Below, piece by piece: positions 2,681-62,587 of a stretch of DNA of 64,000 bases (position 1 is its first letter; every line of letters begins with the position of its first letter). The translations under genes were made by a program, and so were the position numbers. Below the pieces are notes generated by a model that worked only from the letters and a program-made list of their open reading frames with translations, was not told the DNA's origin and did no database searches. Source of the DNA: Malacoraja senta (Eukaryota); NCBI GenBank assembly GCA_038087875.1, contig CM075987.1:22818001-22882000 (forward strand), written 5' to 3'.

Positions 2681-2774
2681 GTCTGAAGAAGGGTCTCGAC
2701 CCGAAACGTCGCCAATTCCTTCTCTCCATAGATGCTGCCTCCCCCGCTGAGTTTCTCCAGCGTTTGTGTCCACC
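2681..2774 (+). mobile_element. Short Penelope-derived element with intact minimal hammerhead motif
   Basis: CTGAAGA A GGGTC TC GACCC GAAAC GTC; flanking 8-bp repeat AGCACAAA (2673-2680 / 2775-2782). Confidence 0.75.
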
Positions 2775-2779
2775 AGCAC

Positions 2780-3200
2780 AAATATGCACATGTATCCGCA
2801 TTTAAATATATATGTCTCCAAATATGCACATGCACACATATACACATGTAATACATTTAAACATGCATGTCTGCAAATATACATGTACACAAATACACAC
2901 GTATGTGCATTTAAATACATGTCTGTACACAAATACACACATATATCTGCATTTAAACACGTCCGTTCACAAACACACACAGATATATATATATATTGCA
3001 TTTAAACATGCCTGCACACAGATACACATACATGTGCAAGGCCCACATGCAAATGCATATCTTTGTACTTGTTTACATACTCCCATATGCACAGACATAC
3101 ATGTGTAATATACATACTAATACACACATTAACATGCATGCACACAGAATGGTTCACGCATATACTCATATGTGTGTGCCTCACATATATGTATATATAC
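2780..3200. repeat. Degenerate AC/AT low-complexity repeat with recurring GCATTTAAA
   Basis: Direct reading. Confidence 0.7.
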
Positions 3201-3251
3201 TTTGGGATTCTTTGCACTAGTATTTGCTCATTTATTGAATAATTGTTTTTT

Positions 3252-59200: not shown

Positions 59201-61799
59201 GCCCTGCAACAAATAATAGTAGATATCAGATTACACATTTTAAAGTGGTGTCCAATTTTGGGGCTTGATTGTGTTTTTTTTATAGATTAACAGATGATTG
59301 GAAGTGAATTAGATGGAATTCAATTGAGGACCTCTTGGATATTGAATTCCACATACCTGTCATTATTATTCTTGTATATGCTACACGTGCGTGTTTACAC
59401 CCAATCTGGTTAGCGACAGTAAGCTCTGCTTTGTATTCATTGAGGTGACAAATATTCTGTGGAATAATGAAACTTTTTGTGTAATTTGTAGTATTTATCA
59501 GGTACAGAGTATCCCTCCTTCATAAATTTGGACTTGGCACAGCTCACGTTGGATTCAAGACAAATTCCCTCTGCACTATTCCATCAAATACTCCCAGGAC
59601 AGACCTAGGATGAGTTCAAAATAAAACACTTATCCCTTTGGATCGTTCCAGGGCTGCTGCACCCTGGCCTGGATACAAAGTGTGGTTGTGTCAAAGGTAA
59701 AATGGCGTCAGAGGCCGAGTAGAGACCTGATGGAAGGATATATAATTATAAGAGACGGAGATCGGGTAGACGGTCAGAACCTTTTCCCCAGAGTGGAAAT
59801 GTCAAAGACTAAAGGGTACAGCTTTAAGGAGAGAGAGTCAAGGTGTAAAGGAGATCTGCAGGGCAATTTTTCCTCGACACAGAGGGTGGTGGGTGCCTGG
59901 AATATCCAGCCAGGGTTGGTGGTGAAGGCAGATACGATAGTGGCATTTAAGATGCTTTAAGATAGGCGCATGGATGTGCGGCGAAGGGAAGGATATGGAT
60001 CCCGTGCGTGCGTGCGTGCAGAGTTGATCATTTTACCTTGGCATCATGTTCGGTGAGGACATTGTGCGCCAAAAGGCATGTTCCTGTGATGTACAGTTTG
60101 GATTCTATACAGAACATTTCATGCATCTTAGAATGGTGTCCTCCTAGATAGTTCTTTGATATTCTTATCTTTTTATCTATTTTATCTTTTAATCTATTTT
60201 ATCCTTTTGTTATTTTATGTTGCACGGGGAGCCAGATGCAACAACATTTCATTCAGACTTGCATTTATTGGTGTATTTTTGAATGACAATAAAGTCTTTT
60301 GATTGTTGGATTGATTGGATTGATTGGTCAACTTTTGTGCTGAAGTGGTTTGATGGTGTAGCCCAAGGGAAAATTCAGTGAGGCATTCCAAAATACGTTG
60401 AGGTGGGTCTCTTGCAATCTGCACAAATGTCACATTGGTCTACGGATCTTCCGACTCAGGAGTGTTAAGGGTCAGTTGAGAGTTTGAGAATTAGAAATGG
60501 ATAATTTCGTGGGTCCCGTCAATGTGCTGGTGATTGAGCCAGTGAGAATTGCATGGATCTGGTTGTACAACGTTTGAGACGCACGGAATATTAATATTTG
60601 ATCTGTCTTTCCCTGAAGAGAAATGGTGGAGCTGCAGTATGTGAGGGAATCACTGGTAATCTGCAATTCCCCTCTGTCAGGAAGGAAGAAGTCACCAACA
60701 GGTGCGATGAAAATACCATATGGTGAAGATATCGATGTGCTACTAGGTATGAAACACACTCATCTTTATTACGGGAAGAACTGAATGAAGCCCTTGTAGA
60801 ATAGAACTATAGTACAATATTTGAGCCCAACATGTTGTTAATACAAACTCTTAACTGCCTGCAAATAACCCATATCCCTCCATTCCGACTATATCCATGA
60901 GCCTATCCAAGAGTCTCTTAAATGCCACCATCATTTCTACACGGTAGGGAAAGCAAGCTAGGTCTTTATAAATCTGGATAATCCAACACTCTTATTCCCA
61001 ATAGATAGATAGATAGATAGATAGATCCTTTAATAATCCTTTACAGGAAATTACAGTGCCACAACAGCTTCAAGACAGACATAACACCACACATTTCCTC
61101 AGATAGCTTCCATACTTAATAAGTTAAATACAATGAATGAATACTAAAAAATGCAACATTATTTTCGTGCATTATAAAACCTTATAGCAGCTGGTATACA
61201 AGACTTCCTATATCTCTCAGTTTCGCACATTGGTGCAATACAGGACAAGATGATCAGAATATCATTCTGATCATGTCCTGTAATTCCTCAAAGGCAAATA
61301 TATCTTTCCTGAGACACAAGAGGCTGTAGATGCTGGATTCTGAAGTAAAGAAAAGAGAGACCTAGAGGAACCTGGTTGGCCATGCAGAATCTGTGGAAAG
61401 AAATGGACAGTCAACATTTCAGGTCAATACCTTCCCAAACTGGAATCCAGTCCAGGTGAAGGGTCTCGACCTGTAAAGTTAATTGTTCATTTCCCTCCAC
61501 AGATGTTGCCGAGCCCACTGAGTTCCTCTAGCAGCTCTCCTACTTTTGCTCTGTATCCTCCCTCTGGTATTGTGTCCACCATTGTCCTCTGGATGTGCAC
61601 GCAGAAAAGGCCGGGAGAGCTCGGAGTATTTATAACGGTGGAGTTGGCCGTTGCTGTATTTTGAAATTCCATCTGCAAGTATGAGGTCAAAATGTTCCTG
61701 TGTTTGTCGTTGCAGAGTATATGCAAAGTGAAATTAATGCGGAGGACGTTCAGAAAGCTGCGCTGAAATACGTGGTGTATTTACTGCATGATCCTGAGG
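47248..61799 (+). CDS. STKLD1: Serine/threonine kinase-like domain-containing protein 1 (SgK071/C9orf96), 5' part: 11 coding exons, 1000 nt; gene continues beyond the window
   Basis: Exons 47248-47262, 47661-47747, 49178-49222, 49983-50057, 52387-52491, 54649-54719, 55436-55551, 56435-56547, 59012-59172, 60619-60746, 61716-61799 join in frame with GT-AG ends. Motifs MENYE, VAVKMIECMDE, HGNLKPTN, DFT, WMAPE and [10 protein letters not shown]. Head-to-head with SURF4, as in human. Confidence 0.9.
47661..47747 (+). CDS. STKLD1: STKLD1 exon 2 ([11 protein letters not shown]...KTVAVKM)
   Basis: ctag|...|gtaagc; kinase Gly-loop and beta3 Lys. Confidence 0.88.
48325..48725 (-). mobile_element. CR1 3' fragment with (CAATAGA)n tail, nested in a SINE
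   Basis: [45 protein letters not shown]. Confidence 0.85.
49178..49222 (+). CDS. STKLD1: STKLD1 exon 3 ([15 protein letters not shown])
   Basis: cag|...|gtaagt; like human VECMDDHYASQALEE. Confidence 0.92.
49983..50057 (+). CDS. STKLD1: STKLD1 exon 4 ([25 protein letters not shown])
   Basis: ttttcag|...|gtttgg. Confidence 0.9.
51150..51680 (-). mobile_element. L1 ORF2 end and 3' UTR fragment
   Basis: Minus strand [29 protein letters not shown]. Confidence 0.7.
51730..52065. mobile_element. Penelope-derived inverted pair with a 66-bp triplication
   Basis: ctcagcgggtcaggcagcatc at 51775, 51841 and 51907. Confidence 0.7.
52387..52491 (+). CDS. STKLD1: STKLD1 exon 5 ([12 protein letters not shown]...KYKIREM)
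   Basis: tgcag|...|gtaagg; hinge region. Confidence 0.9.
54649..54719 (+). CDS. STKLD1: STKLD1 exon 6 ([24 protein letters not shown])
   Basis: cctaag|...GG|gttagt. Confidence 0.92.
55058..55350. repeat. (GA)n/(GGGA)n polypurine microsatellite
   Basis: Direct reading. Confidence 0.97.
55436..55551 (+). CDS. STKLD1: STKLD1 exon 7 ([23 protein letters not shown]...)
   Basis: cctag|...C|gtaaga. Confidence 0.92.
56435..56547 (+). CDS. STKLD1: STKLD1 exon 8 ([10 protein letters not shown]...[21 protein letters not shown])
   Basis: cttag|...|gtatga; kinase subdomains VIII-IX. Confidence 0.93.
57080..58520 (+). mobile_element. Highly degraded CR1 ORF2 with a younger CR1 3' end inserted (~57295-57510)
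   Basis: Remnants [28 protein letters not shown] and CVQFWSP-like. Confidence 0.65.
59012..59172 (+). CDS. STKLD1: STKLD1 exon 9 ([14 protein letters not shown]...MKRISA)
   Basis: aaag|...CT|gtaagc; subdomain XI Arg; 5' boundary less certain. Confidence 0.82.
59720..60110 (+). mobile_element. CR1 3' fragment
   Basis: [32 protein letters not shown]. Confidence 0.75.
60619..60746 (+). CDS. STKLD1: STKLD1 exon 10 ([19 protein letters not shown]...DIDVLL)
   Basis: gaag|...G|gtatga; phase-compatible with both neighbours. Confidence 0.8.
61716..61799 (+). CDS. STKLD1: STKLD1 exon 11 ([27 protein letters not shown])
   Basis: tgcag|...G|gtgggt; like human EVMQKFSGWPEVQLRAMK. Confidence 0.8.
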
Positions 61800-61891
61800 G
61801 TGGGTGAATGTTATATAATAAGCATTGCTCTAATGCTAAAAGGCCAGCTCGGTTTATCTCTCAGCATGTGAGTTGCACACTTCATGACTGA

Positions 61892-62587
61892 AGGGCCTGT
61901 CCCACTTACGTGTCCTTGGCACGCAAATTACGCGACCTCGTGGTCGCGTTGAGGCGCACGGGCATCGTATGGCCGCGCGGGGCCGGTCCCACTTAGAAGC
62001 GCGGAGGGGTATGTGGTTGTGAGCGACATCGCGCGGGGCTCCGAAATTTTTGTAGCGAACAAAATCTTCGCGCGCCAACGGCCTGTCGCGGAACTGACGG
62101 CCAAAGTGGGACAGGCCCAGGACCCTGGCACGACGCAACGTCTCACCTTCAACAGCAGCAGAAGCAGGCAAACGATCGCCGAACTCGGCCTGGGGCTCAC
62201 GGCCGTTGCTGATCCAGATCCTCCCCCACTTCTACTCCCAGAGCGGGGCCAAGAAAATTGAAGATGGAAACAAAATGCAGGAGTAACTCAGCGGGACCGG
62301 CAGCATCTCTGGAGAGAAGCAATGGGTGACGTTTCGGGTCAAGACCCTTCTTTTCAGACTGAAGAAGAGTCTCGACATGAAACATCACCCATTGCTTCTC
62401 TCCAGAGATGCTGCTGGTCTCGCTGAGTTACTCCAGCTTTGTGTCCATCTTCAAATGACGTCACGTGCTCCAGACGGCTGTGCGGGCGCATGAAATCGCA
62501 CCCGACCTTTGCGGGACCGTCGCGGCTCAACGCGACCACGAGGTCGCGGAATTTGCGTGGCAAGGACACGTAAGTGGGACAGGCCCT
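61892..62587. mobile_element. PIF/Harbinger-type MITE containing a nested palindromic Penelope-derived insertion (~62260-62452)
   Basis: ~62-bp TIRs (AGGGCCTGTCCCACTTACGTGTCCTTG...) with 2 mismatches; TGA TSD (61889-61891 / 62588-62590). Confidence 0.85.

What the first reader, a model, noticed from the sequence alone, without database searches (positions are those of the whole stretch)
2681..62452. Dense family of short mobile inserts carrying a minimal hammerhead-ribozyme motif
Seen: about 20 copies of one ~100-280 bp repeat. Examples are 2681, 5160, 6593, 7915, 10435, 17500, 17771, 23480, 24136, 24925, 27776, 35180, 39420, 40070, 41860, 45719, 51730, 55670, 61310 and 62260. The best copies read CUGAAGA-A-GGGUC UC GACCC-GAAAC-GUC/GUU. 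Established: CUGANGA, stem II, GAAA and NUH form the hammerhead core, and Penelope-like elements carry minimal type I hammerheads with a very short palindromic helix III that are thought to act as dimers. Here GAAACGUC contains the self-complementary ACGU. A Penelope GIY-YIG remnant lies at 22270. Inference: this is a high-copy non-autonomous ribozyme-bearing retroelement mobilised by Penelope machinery, at roughly one copy per 3 kb. Stem I is only 2-3 bp, so activity is unproven.
Basis: partly seen in the sequence, partly recalled or inferred. Interest (0 to 1): 0.8.

Follow-up and report, generated by a model that had tools for sequence, protein, structure and literature searches.

The report
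Penelope retroelement tails carrying minimal hammerheads
A short repeat scattered through this vertebrate genome is the tail end of a Penelope-like jumping gene and carries the small hammerhead-ribozyme motif typical of such elements, a known kind of sequence that is unusually abundant here.

Summary

The motif CUGAAGA-A-GGGUCUCGACCC-GAAA-CG-UC meets each sequence feature published for the minimal hammerhead of Penelope-like elements (PLEs; PMC4209133).

Longer copies elsewhere in the genome show what the unit is. It is the last ~100-137 nt of a PLE, lying 90-500 nt after the stop of an RT + GIY-YIG reading frame.

Single arms and head-to-head dimers each carry one target-site duplication of about 9-19 bp. 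Inverted partners are a PLE hallmark. About four in five motif copies begin within a few nt of the hammerhead's 5' edge.

The 28-nt motif occurs 201,852 times with up to 3 mismatches, against 0 for the control.

Self-cleavage is unshown. Rfam gives no hammerhead hit, helix I is 2 bp, the core is no better conserved than other blocks, there is no covariation, and I obtained no RNA data.

Verdict: a correct reading and a new, very abundant member of a known kind. This scan has already noted such hammerheads in at least 7 other genomes.

The parts
2680..2768 (+). Single arm with an intact minimal-hammerhead motif at 2683; flanked by AGCACAAA on both sides
5151..5255 (-). Single arm, short 3' end, intact motif at 5251; imperfect flanking duplication (13 nt with 1 mismatch)
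6590..6824 (.). Head-to-head dimer (- arm 6590-6710, + arm 6720-6824) with one flanking duplication (13 nt with 1 mismatch)
7903..8002 (-). Single arm, short 3' end, flanking duplication of 11 nt with 1 mismatch
10429..10598 (.). Head-to-head dimer; the + arm is only a stub (model positions 27-66)
17500..17589 (-). Single arm lacking the first 18 model positions
17763..18051 (.). Head-to-head dimer of the GGGUUUCGGCCC subfamily; its - arm holds three tandem ~35-nt copies of the helix II-GAAAC segment; one flanking duplication (20 nt with 1 mismatch)
22283..22705 (+). PLE remnant: C-terminal part of the GIY-YIG endonuclease frame (to the stop at 22489) plus 3' UTR. It ends just before the point where the unit begins in other copies. 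It lies in the intron after a SURF2 exon.
23479..23613 (.). Old head-to-head dimer
24136..24231 (+). Single arm of the GGGUUUCGGCCC / GUU subfamily, intact motif at 24140, 12-bp duplication TGATCTATCATC
24922..25118 (.). Old head-to-head dimer
27220..27330 (+). Old single arm
27771..27940 (.). Head-to-head dimer with one flanking duplication (17 nt with 1 mismatch)
32043..32180 (-). Weak, old copy (E 6e-7)
35188..35336 (.). Old head-to-head dimer
39422..39628 (+). Copy preceded by PLE 3' UTR sequence, followed by a partial tandem piece (model positions 46-129)
39892..39929 (-). Small fragment
40072..40170 (-). Arm lacking the hammerhead part (model positions 27-131)
41867..41998 (+). Long arm ending in CCTACAC. 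A 10-nt inverted stub replaces GTCTGAAGAA at its 5' end. Flanking duplication of about 15 nt.
44407..44488 (+). 3' fragment (model positions 54-135)
45717..45855 (+). Long single arm; its 10.1-11.1 position reads U-C, a mismatch that breaks that pair
51725..52071 (.). Head-to-head dimer whose - arm holds three tandem ~66-nt pieces (model positions 29-95); these pieces lack the CUGAAGA box
55665..55746 (-). Fragment (model positions 22-102)
61320..61533 (.). Old head-to-head dimer
62255..62463 (.). Head-to-head dimer; 83-nt arms, 88% complementary, 9 nt apart

Best explanation
The repeat is the hammerhead-bearing 3'-terminal module of a very abundant Penelope-like retroelement (PLE) family. In published PLE terms it is the pseudo-LTR/tail region.

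Shown here:
- Longer copies have this order: RT + C-terminal GIY-YIG frame, stop, about 90-500 nt of 3' UTR, the motif CUGAAGA-A-GGGUCUCGACCC-GAAA-CG-UC, then 70-100 nt more.
- The 3' ends fall into discrete classes. One lies near ...GTGTCTATC (model positions 102-112). The others lie near model positions 129-136 and at ...CCTACAC (139-141).
- New copies were made by target-primed reverse transcription. Single arms and head-to-head dimers are each flanked by one target-site duplication of about 9-19 bp.
- A dimer is therefore made in one integration event. This fits the 'inverted 5'-truncated copy' known for PLEs.

Inferred, not shown:
- Most copies were copied from a short RNA that starts 0-4 nt upstream of GUCUGAAGAA. 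This could be a transcript starting inside the pseudo-LTR, where Penelope has its start site.
- That RNA is reverse-transcribed from an internal initiation site by PLE protein supplied in trans.
- If so, the module behaves as a minimal non-autonomous element.
- Both arms of a dimer run to that same RNA 5' end. They arise either from priming on both cleaved DNA strands or from snap-back of the cDNA.

The hammerhead is a PLE-type minimal motif that could cut only as a dimer through the ACGU palindrome, and perhaps only with protein help. Nothing here shows that it cuts, and the ends of the inserted copies are not at its cleavage site.
For: Identity of the repeat:
- 39 segments in the window.
- 201,852 motif copies in the genome, against 0 for the reversed control.

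Link to a PLE:
- 11 copies aligned upstream share 3' UTR sequence, and several of them share a coding end.
- Translation gives YLRYINDC, LIYCIRCSRCQLLYIGET...LGDRFAQHLRSV and a stop.
- That piece hits Pfam GIY-YIG at E 4e-4.
- It is 29.5% identical over 430 aa, E 5e-46, to a 759-aa frame of a second family. That frame hits both RVT_1 and GIY-YIG.
- The protein atlas places it among eukaryotic GIY-YIG clusters.
- Of 10 places with an endonuclease match in the window plus the 200-kb sample, 6 have a unit 103-505 nt downstream on the same strand. A further locus shows the same arrangement.

Integration signature:
- 17 of 81 insertions have a flanking repeat scoring 9 or more (matched length minus 1 when there is a mismatch), against 6 of 399 shuffled pairings. 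Six of the 17 are dimers.
- 19 of 21 adjacent inverted arrangements are head-to-head, p 2e-4.
- 2,336 exact head-to-head junctions occur genome-wide, control 0. The commonest is a stem with a 3-nt centre.

5' boundary:
- 45 of 116 segments start at model positions 3-6.
- Of 67 segments that reach the 5' edge, 14 continue into UTR-like sequence, by my reading.
- Genome-wide, 13,139 of 74,020 exact 5' edges continue into TGAC...CAG.
- 3' ends cluster at model positions 102-112 (28 segments), 129-136 (19) and 139-141 (27).

Motif and literature:
- The motif fits the published minimal-hammerhead features (PMC4209133).
- It passes my own version of the descriptor 3 times in the window, against 0.005 in simulation.
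- From passages of PMC8557442: PLE hallmarks are heavy 5' truncation, an inverted 5'-truncated partner, a tail, a hammerhead in the pseudo-LTR, and a start site in the Penelope pseudo-LTR.
- From passages of PMC11167929: a lizard PLE protein cleaves and extends both DNA strands and initiates reverse transcription internally.
Against: - No Rfam hammerhead model matches: not at gathering score, not at E up to 10 over the window, and not in a 181-nt search around the best copy.
- Helix I is 2 bp.
- Core positions are not clearly better conserved than the rest. Their mean is 0.866 against 0.806, and 6% of random position sets do as well. Blocks 50-64 and 73-87 are as well or better kept.
- Pair counts show no covariation for the hammerhead fold: 85.5% of cells are paired, a value reached by 66 of 500 shuffles. 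A competing stem between GAAGAAGGGU and ACCC..UUCCUUC does equally well, at 82.6% (27 of 500).
- In 3 of 5 folded copies that competing stem takes up part of the core in the minimum-energy fold.
- No excess of copy starts lies at the predicted cleavage site, model position 37.
- Close tandem hammerhead pairs, which dimeric cutting in cis would need, are rare: 556 genome-wide.
- I never saw the 5' end of a full-length element. That the unit is also the upstream pseudo-LTR is therefore unverified.
- 3 of 10 endonuclease matches have no unit within 600 nt, and one more runs off its locus.
- The base before A-GTCTG is G in 7,911 copies and A or T in 11,111. I judge this only a mild excess of G, so a cap-derived extra G is not supported.
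Confidence: 0.8

Rival explanations
1. The copies are ordinary dead-on-arrival 5' truncations of full-length PLE RNA, and no separate short RNA exists. Reverse transcriptase would simply tend to stop or switch template just after copying the stable helix II and hammerhead region.
For: - Heavy 5' truncation is a published PLE trait (PMC8557442, passages).
- Copies truncated inside the RT frame exist (L029; L042).
- About 18-21% of 5'-complete units do continue into the 3' UTR.
Against: - The pile-up at one point is very sharp: 45 of 116 segments start at model positions 3-6.
- Both arms of a dimer tend to end at that same point.
- Partial tandem junctions again join at (A/CA/TCA/GA)GTCTGAAGAA.
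- A polymerase stall would be expected before the hairpin, not after it. This last point is inference.
Confidence: 0.15
2. The hammerhead-like string is a chance resemblance inside the 3' recognition structure of a retroelement. The conserved hairpin GGGUCUCGACCC and the stem around it serve only as a binding or initiation signal for the reverse transcriptase.
For: - Rfam finds no hammerhead.
- There is no covariation.
- The competing stem scores as well and appears in minimum-energy folds.
- In the lizard PLE, hammerhead mutants did not affect insertion in vitro (PMC11167929, passage).
Against: - The string meets six independent published features at once, including three that were not part of the original search descriptor: the extra nucleotide after A9, the G10.1-C11.1 pair and the palindromic 15.2/16.2 pair (PMC4209133).
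- It sits in a PLE, the one element class where such motifs are reported to be the rule.
- The positions that differ between subfamilies are 10.4/11.4 and 10.5/11.5 (through G-U wobble), the loop, H17 (C to U) and 1.1. None is an invariant core position. By my own count this has only p about 0.08.
Confidence: 0.1
3. The repeat is a foldback or MITE-type DNA transposon, or a pol III SINE unrelated to PLEs.
For: - Ten palindromic copies in the window look like long terminal inverted repeats.
- The units are short and non-coding.
Against: - Single arms are complete insertions with their own duplications of variable length, about 9-17 bp. This does not fit a cut-and-paste transposase.
- The arms are colinear with the 3' end of an RT + GIY-YIG frame.
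- ARAGORN finds no tRNA-like sequence in the window.
Confidence: 0.02

Closest known systems
Minimal hammerheads (min-HHR) in the pseudo-LTRs of metazoan Penelope-like elements (Cervera and De la Pena 2014, PMC4209133)
   Same: - The core boxes match.
- One unpaired nucleotide lies between positions 9 and 10.1.
- There is a G10.1-C11.1 pair and a long helix II.
- There is no real helix III; a palindromic 15.2/16.2 pair stands in for it.
- Most motifs are dispersed singly.
- Some lie as close pairs on opposite strands.
- A few lie next to a PLE reading frame.
   Different: - Helix I is 2 bp. The paper reports 4-5 bp in Schistosoma and 2 bp only in the Drosophila virilis variant.
- There are about 200,000 motif copies. 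The paper calls about 4,000 (coelacanth) and about 9,000 (Xenopus) remarkable.
- Most copies here begin within a few nt of the motif's 5' edge.
Canonical EN+ PLE insertion structures: pseudo-LTR, inverted 5'-truncated partner, tail (Craig et al. 2021, PMC8557442; Poseidon of Anolis, PMC11167929)
   Same: - An RT + C-terminal GIY-YIG frame.
- Heavy 5' truncation.
- An inverted partner joined at the 5' side within one insertion.
- A hammerhead near the 3' end.
- Discrete 3' ends, compatible with internal initiation of reverse transcription.
   Different: - Here the inverted structures are mostly made of the short module alone, so they form 200-280 bp palindromes.
- Clear target-site duplications are seen, rather than microsatellite targets.
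- Partial tandems of whole elements were not seen for this family in my sample.
Non-LTR retrozymes of animals, proposed to derive from PLE pseudo-LTRs (PMC7229834, listing only; bioRxiv 10.64898/2026.07.22.740005, abstract, Results part 1 and passages)
   Same: - Short, non-coding, hammerhead-bearing sequences related to PLE pseudo-LTRs.
- Monomeric dispersed copies exist.
   Different: - Retrozymes are defined by tandem units, each with a complete type I hammerhead, that give circular RNA.
- Here close tandem motif pairs number 556 genome-wide, against 201,852 motif copies.
- The usual forms here are single arms and inverted dimers.

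Membership tests
PLE minimal hammerhead (min-HHR, PMC4209133) | Core boxes CUGANGA ... GAAA ... UH in type I order | tested here: met
   Present in the main subfamilies. My own version of the descriptor passes at 2683, 5251 and 24140 in the window and 11 times in the 200-kb sample, against 0.005 per simulated window.
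PLE minimal hammerhead (min-HHR, PMC4209133) | One unpaired nucleotide between A9 and 10.1, and a G10.1-C11.1 pair | tested here: met
   The extra A is kept in 69 of 77 copies (position 16). The 10.1-11.1 position is GC in 32, GU in 7, AU in 3 and unpaired in 7 of 49 cells.
PLE minimal hammerhead (min-HHR, PMC4209133) | Helix II of 4 bp or more | tested here: met
   GGGUC/GACCC gives 5 pairs with a 2-nt loop, or 4 pairs with a tetraloop. 88.4% of cells are paired, but there is no covariation beyond shuffles.
PLE minimal hammerhead (min-HHR, PMC4209133) | No helix III; self-complementary 15.2/16.2, so that two copies can pair | tested here: met
   GAAA-CG-UC contains ACGU, as read directly from the sequence. 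Dimer formation itself was not tested.
PLE minimal hammerhead (min-HHR, PMC4209133) | Helix I of 4-5 bp (2 bp in the D. virilis variant) | tested here: inconclusive
   Only U2.1-A1.1 and G2.2-C1.2 can pair, and 78% of cells do. In most copies the element itself starts 0-4 nt upstream.
PLE minimal hammerhead (min-HHR, PMC4209133) | Lies in the terminal repeat of a PLE | tested here: met
   It lies 90-500 nt after the stop of an RT + GIY-YIG frame in L029, L033, L034 (two copies), L035, L036 and L042. The upstream repeat of a full-length copy was not seen.
Hammerhead ribozyme (any type) | Site-specific self-cleavage after H17 | not testable with these tools
   I obtained no RNA data. Copy starts show no excess at the predicted site.
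Rfam hammerhead families | Match to a curated covariance model | tested here: not met
   No hammerhead family is listed at gathering score, at E up to 10 over the window, or in 181 nt around the best copy.
Penelope-like element, EN+ | A single frame with a reverse transcriptase followed by a C-terminal GIY-YIG endonuclease | tested here: met
   See the L029 frames. GIY-YIG scores E 4e-4 at 21 bits, under the 22.6-bit cut-off. The frame is 29.5% identical over 430 aa to a 759-aa frame that has RVT_1 (27.5 bits, under its cut-off) and GIY-YIG (27.2 bits, over its cut-off). The atlas places it among GIY-YIG clusters. Open frames reach 1,224-1,318 aa.
Penelope-like element, EN+ | 5' truncation, an inverted 5'-truncated partner, complex insertions | tested here: met
   
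Non-LTR retrozyme | Head-to-tail tandem units, each with a complete type I hammerhead | tested here: not met
   556 close tandem pairs genome-wide, against 201,852 motif copies. The sample holds 61 single arms, 21 arrangements with inverted arms and 1 partial tandem, out of 83 insertions.
tRNA-derived SINE | A tRNA-like head | tested here: not met
   ARAGORN finds no tRNA-like sequence in the window. 5S and 7SL heads were not tested apart from the Rfam scans.

The most novel reading that the evidence does not exclude
The module may be a self-propagating 'solo pseudo-LTR': a roughly 100-137 nt parasite of the PLE machinery that brings its own transcription start and its own internal site for starting reverse transcription.

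Its RNA would begin 0-4 nt before the hammerhead core, so the ribozyme sits at the extreme 5' end with almost no helix I. That placement would mean the motif is kept for something other than cutting. Candidates are binding of the PLE protein, or shaping the 5' end so that the cDNA folds back into the head-to-head dimers.

On this reading a hammerhead-shaped RNA signal, not a ribozyme reaction, underlies a family that fills about 3.5% of a vertebrate genome.
Probability: 0.3. Interest if true: 0.55.

Novelty: new member of a known kind. Interest (0 to 1): 0.35.

Why it matters
What hammerheads do for Penelope-like elements is still open. The papers I read report low activity in vitro (PMC4209133). 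They also report cleavage that needs the element's protein but is dispensable for insertion in vitro (PMC11167929).

This genome offers an unusually large natural data set for that question:
- about 200,000 motif copies;
- several subfamilies;
- natural single, inverted and tandem arrangements;
- a sharp 5' boundary right at the motif.

If RNA-end mapping showed where these RNAs start and whether they are cut, it would bear directly on two points. One is whether the motif acts as a ribozyme or as a protein-binding signal. The other is how the inverted PLE insertions arise.

For annotation, the family explains about 3.5% of the genome. It also explains many perfect 200-280 bp hairpins that could otherwise be taken for MITEs or microRNA precursors.

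Tried and rejected
- my first strict pattern allowed 14 free bases between CTGAAGA and GAAAC. The true spacing is 13, so it found only the copy at 45723, which has an extra base. The result is uninformative.
- made me think the 'GIY-YIG remnant at 22270' was a SURF2 exon. Searches showed that both are present side by side, and I withdrew the doubt.
- RNA evidence: no RNA holder listed.
- The 5' end of a full-length element: none of the loci I held contains one, and further genome letters were not available.
- A cap-derived extra G at the 5' junction: GA 7,911 against AA+TA 11,111 and CA 54,998. I judge this only a mild G excess, so I dropped the idea.
- A type III-like hammerhead cutting at the unit's 5' edge (UC|AGUCUGAAGA): the upstream UGAC could pair with GUCA in one UTR variant but not in the other, and there is no room for helix I. 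I rejected it by inspecting the sequences.
- A 3' splice site at CAG|UCUGAAGA, by analogy with the Penelope intron that ends at helix I (PMC4209133): a pyrimidine tract and CUGAC are present. However, short copies carry no shared upstream exon, so this does not explain their ends. It remains untested.
- PDB sequence search with the 759-aa PLE frame: no match. NCBIfam gave only weak group II intron RT similarity.
- Literature searches for this family used the words 'shark' and 'elasmobranch' on a recalled impression only, and found nothing specific. I could not consult Repbase or Dfam.

Full report
**Observation**

The repeat exists and is far above chance.
- A 19-mer from its core (up to 3 mismatches) gives 14 matches in the window, against 0.01 expected.
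- A 32-mer from its body gives 6 matches, against 0.00 expected.
- A profile HMM built from 13 copies finds 39 segments.
- These form 24 insertions covering 3,641 bp, 5.7% of the window.
- Only three copies still pass a complete minimal-hammerhead descriptor: 2683 (+), 5251 (-) and 24140 (+). First-order Markov simulations of the window give 0.005.

The window lies in a 1.94-Gb genome.
- There the 28-nt motif occurs 18,728 times exactly.
- It occurs 201,852 times with up to 3 mismatches.
- The reversed control gives 0 in both searches.
- In 20 arbitrarily placed 10-kb stretches I found 77 segments, 3.5% of the bases.

**Anatomy of the unit**

One arm reads (A)GTCTGAAGAA-GGGTCTCGACCC-GAAACGTC-ACCCATTCC...
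- Its 5' end is sharp: 45 of 116 segments start at model positions 3-6.
- Its 3' ends fall into discrete classes: positions 102-112 (28 segments), 129-136 (19) and 139-141 (27).
- A second subfamily reads GGGTTTCGGCCC-GAAACGTT and has the short 3' end.

Ten of the 24 insertions in the window are head-to-head pairs of arms, a minus arm followed by a plus arm.
- The repeat finder confirms this. For example, there are 83-nt arms, 88% complementary and 9 nt apart, at 62270-62444.
- Over the window plus the sample, 19 of 21 adjacent inverted arrangements are head-to-head, p = 2e-4.
- Genome-wide there are 2,336 exact head-to-head junctions, control 0. Most are a perfect stem around a 3-nt centre.

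**Mode of insertion**

I looked for direct repeats across the outer borders of each insertion.
- 17 of 81 insertions have one scoring 9 or more (matched length minus 1 when there is a mismatch). Pairing flanks of different insertions gives 6 of 399.
- Single arms have them. Examples are TGATCTATCATC at 24136-24231 and 16 nt in L032 and L038.
- Dimers also have them, and only one per dimer: 13, 20 and 17 nt (each with 1 mismatch) at 6590-6824, 17763-18051 and 27771-27940.

A dimer is therefore made in one integration event. The long, variable duplications point to target-primed reverse transcription, not to a transposase.

**What the unit belongs to**

Eleven copies share sequence upstream of GTCTGAAGAA.
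- Translated, several run back into a reading frame. It contains YLRYINDC and LIYCIRCSRCQLLYIGET..LGDRFAQHLRSV, and it ends ...NIDFSNFR-stop.
- The C-terminal piece hits Pfam GIY-YIG at E 4e-4. Its 21 bits are just under the cut-off.
- The whole fragment is 29.5% identical over 430 aa, E 5e-46, to a 759-aa frame of a second family in the same genome. That frame carries both RVT_1 and GIY-YIG.
- The protein atlas puts the piece among eukaryotic GIY-YIG clusters.

A reverse transcriptase followed by a C-terminal GIY-YIG endonuclease is the defining architecture of EN+ Penelope-like elements (PMC8557442, passages).

Of 10 places with an endonuclease match in the window plus the sample:
- 6 have a unit 103-505 nt downstream on the same strand;
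- 3 have none within 600 nt (L026, L040 and the window's own remnant);
- 1 runs off its locus.

A further locus fetched for the purpose shows the same order.

The family is huge.
- The first look gave 109,916 candidates for the endonuclease piece and 27,614 for the RT piece.
- Open frames reach 1,224-1,318 aa.

**The remnant at 22270**

It is right.
- The SURF2 exon ends at a GT donor near 22245.
- From 22283 the same frame reads [24 protein letters not shown]...[12 protein letters not shown], at 65% identity to the PLE endonuclease, E 8e-25.
- It is followed by 3' UTR up to about 22705. That is just short of where the unit would begin.

**The hammerhead reading**

Cervera and De la Pena (PMC4209133; I read the introduction, results, discussion and part of the methods) describe the PLE minimal hammerhead as follows:
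- CUGANGA;
- a G10.1-C11.1 pair;
- a long helix II;
- GAAA;
- a palindromic 15.2/16.2 pair in place of helix III;
- UH;
- a helix I of 4-5 bp (2 bp in Drosophila virilis).

They also report that most motifs are solitary and dispersed, and that some lie close together on opposite strands. The motif here meets every sequence feature. The exception is helix I, which is 2 bp.

**Tests that do not support an active ribozyme**

- Rfam lists no hammerhead family at gathering score, at E up to 10, or in 181 nt around the best copy.
- Core positions are kept in 86.6% of copies on average, against 80.6% for other non-CpG positions. 6% of random position sets do as well. Blocks 50-64 and 73-87 reach 88-89%.
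- On 52 aligned copies the hammerhead helices are paired in 85.5% of cells, a value reached by 66 of 500 shuffles.
- A competing stem between GAAGAAGGGU and ACCC..UUCCUUC is paired in 82.6% of cells (27 of 500).
- In 3 of 5 copies that stem takes up part of the core in the minimum-energy fold.
- Copy starts show no excess at the predicted cleavage site.
- Close tandem pairs of motifs number only 556 genome-wide.

Most copies are dead and decaying, mainly at CpG sites, so the conservation and covariation tests have little power. The differences between subfamilies fall on helix II (through G-U wobble), the loop, H17 (C to U) and 1.1, and not on invariant core positions. By my own count that has only p about 0.08.

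**The 5' boundary**

Of 67 segments that reach the 5' edge, 14 continue into pyrimidine-rich UTR-like sequence, by my reading.

Genome-wide counts for the exact 5' edge preceded by A:
- 54,998 preceded by CA;
- 7,911 preceded by GA;
- 11,111 preceded by AA or TA;
- 13,139 that continue into TGAC-N(0-4)-CAG. This is 18% of the 74,020 total and a lower bound.

So about four in five motif copies begin within a few nucleotides of the hammerhead. The same holds for both arms of dimers and for the junctions of partial tandems.

My inference is a distinct short RNA template whose 5' end lies there. This would fit the published start site inside the Penelope pseudo-LTR (PMC8557442, passage). It would also fit internal initiation of reverse transcription and extension of both DNA strands by a lizard PLE protein (PMC11167929, passages). 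No RNA data were obtained to test this.

**Comparison and novelty**

This is the known kind of sequence described in 2014, and this scan has met it in at least 7 other genomes.

Three things are particular here:
- The scale. There are about 200,000 motif copies, while the paper remarkable.
- The sharp 5' boundary at the motif.
- The many 200-280 bp palindromes made of the module alone.

It is not a retrozyme in the defined sense, because tandem units are rare. I found no paper on this particular family. Those searches were weak, because I do not know the organism, and I could not consult Repbase or Dfam.

**Limits**

- I have no RNA evidence.
- The supplements of PMC4209133, which hold the structural alignments of min-HHRs, were not consulted.

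Noticed in passing
window 22139-22245 (+): An exon of SURF2 (Pfam PF05477, E 5.7e-18) ends at a GT donor. A PLE remnant lies in the same frame just downstream, in the intron. An ORF-based annotation could therefore fuse the two.
   Followed up: partly
L018-L021 (G000 C5485, C5550, C1804, C14): A second PLE family with a 759-aa RT + GIY-YIG frame, and in some units an upstream frame of about 600 aa, stands in tandem arrays. It carries its own hammerhead-core-like string, CTGACGA-A-GCTA..TAGC-GAAAC, between the frames. It has no copy of the unit studied here, and the string fails my minimal descriptor downstream of GAAA.
   Followed up: partly
genome-wide: In most of the 150 scored endonuclease matches the open frame is only about 231 aa, and in L029 a stop separates the RT and EN parts. 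Other copies have uninterrupted frames of 1,224 aa or more. Older copies may share a stop or a frameshift between RT and EN, or an intron may lie there.
   Followed up: no
window 17855-17925; L026 7725-7793; L034 2775-2947: Some copies hold two or three head-to-tail repeats of 35-41 nt, each containing helix II and GAAAC. In L034 each repeat also has a full CUGAAGA box. These are the natural tandem forms that dimeric cleavage would need. There are 556 such close pairs genome-wide.
   Followed up: partly
window 58172-58317: A near-perfect hairpin of about 145 nt gives sub-threshold microRNA-like Rfam matches on both strands (MIR821 at 53 bits, mir-147 at 42 bits). It is probably another palindromic repeat, unrelated to the unit.
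   Followed up: no
window 2770-3150: A tandem array of units about 60-70 nt long and rich in ACACA/TGTG (...catttaaaca...) starts right after the copy at 2680. It gives weak mir-297-like Rfam matches.
   Followed up: no
window 11228-12878 (-): Open frames of 473-525 aa in all three frames of one strand match the Spt5 C-terminal nonapeptide repeat (PF12815, E 7e-15). This suggests a long simple-repeat tract rather than a gene.
   Followed up: no
window about 7996-8110 and 10310-10430: Another dispersed repeat (...gagatacagcgcggaaacaggccc...cgaccagcgatccccgcacactaacactatcc...) abuts two copies of the unit. It looks like an unrelated SINE-type family. That label is from recall and was not tested.
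   Followed up: no
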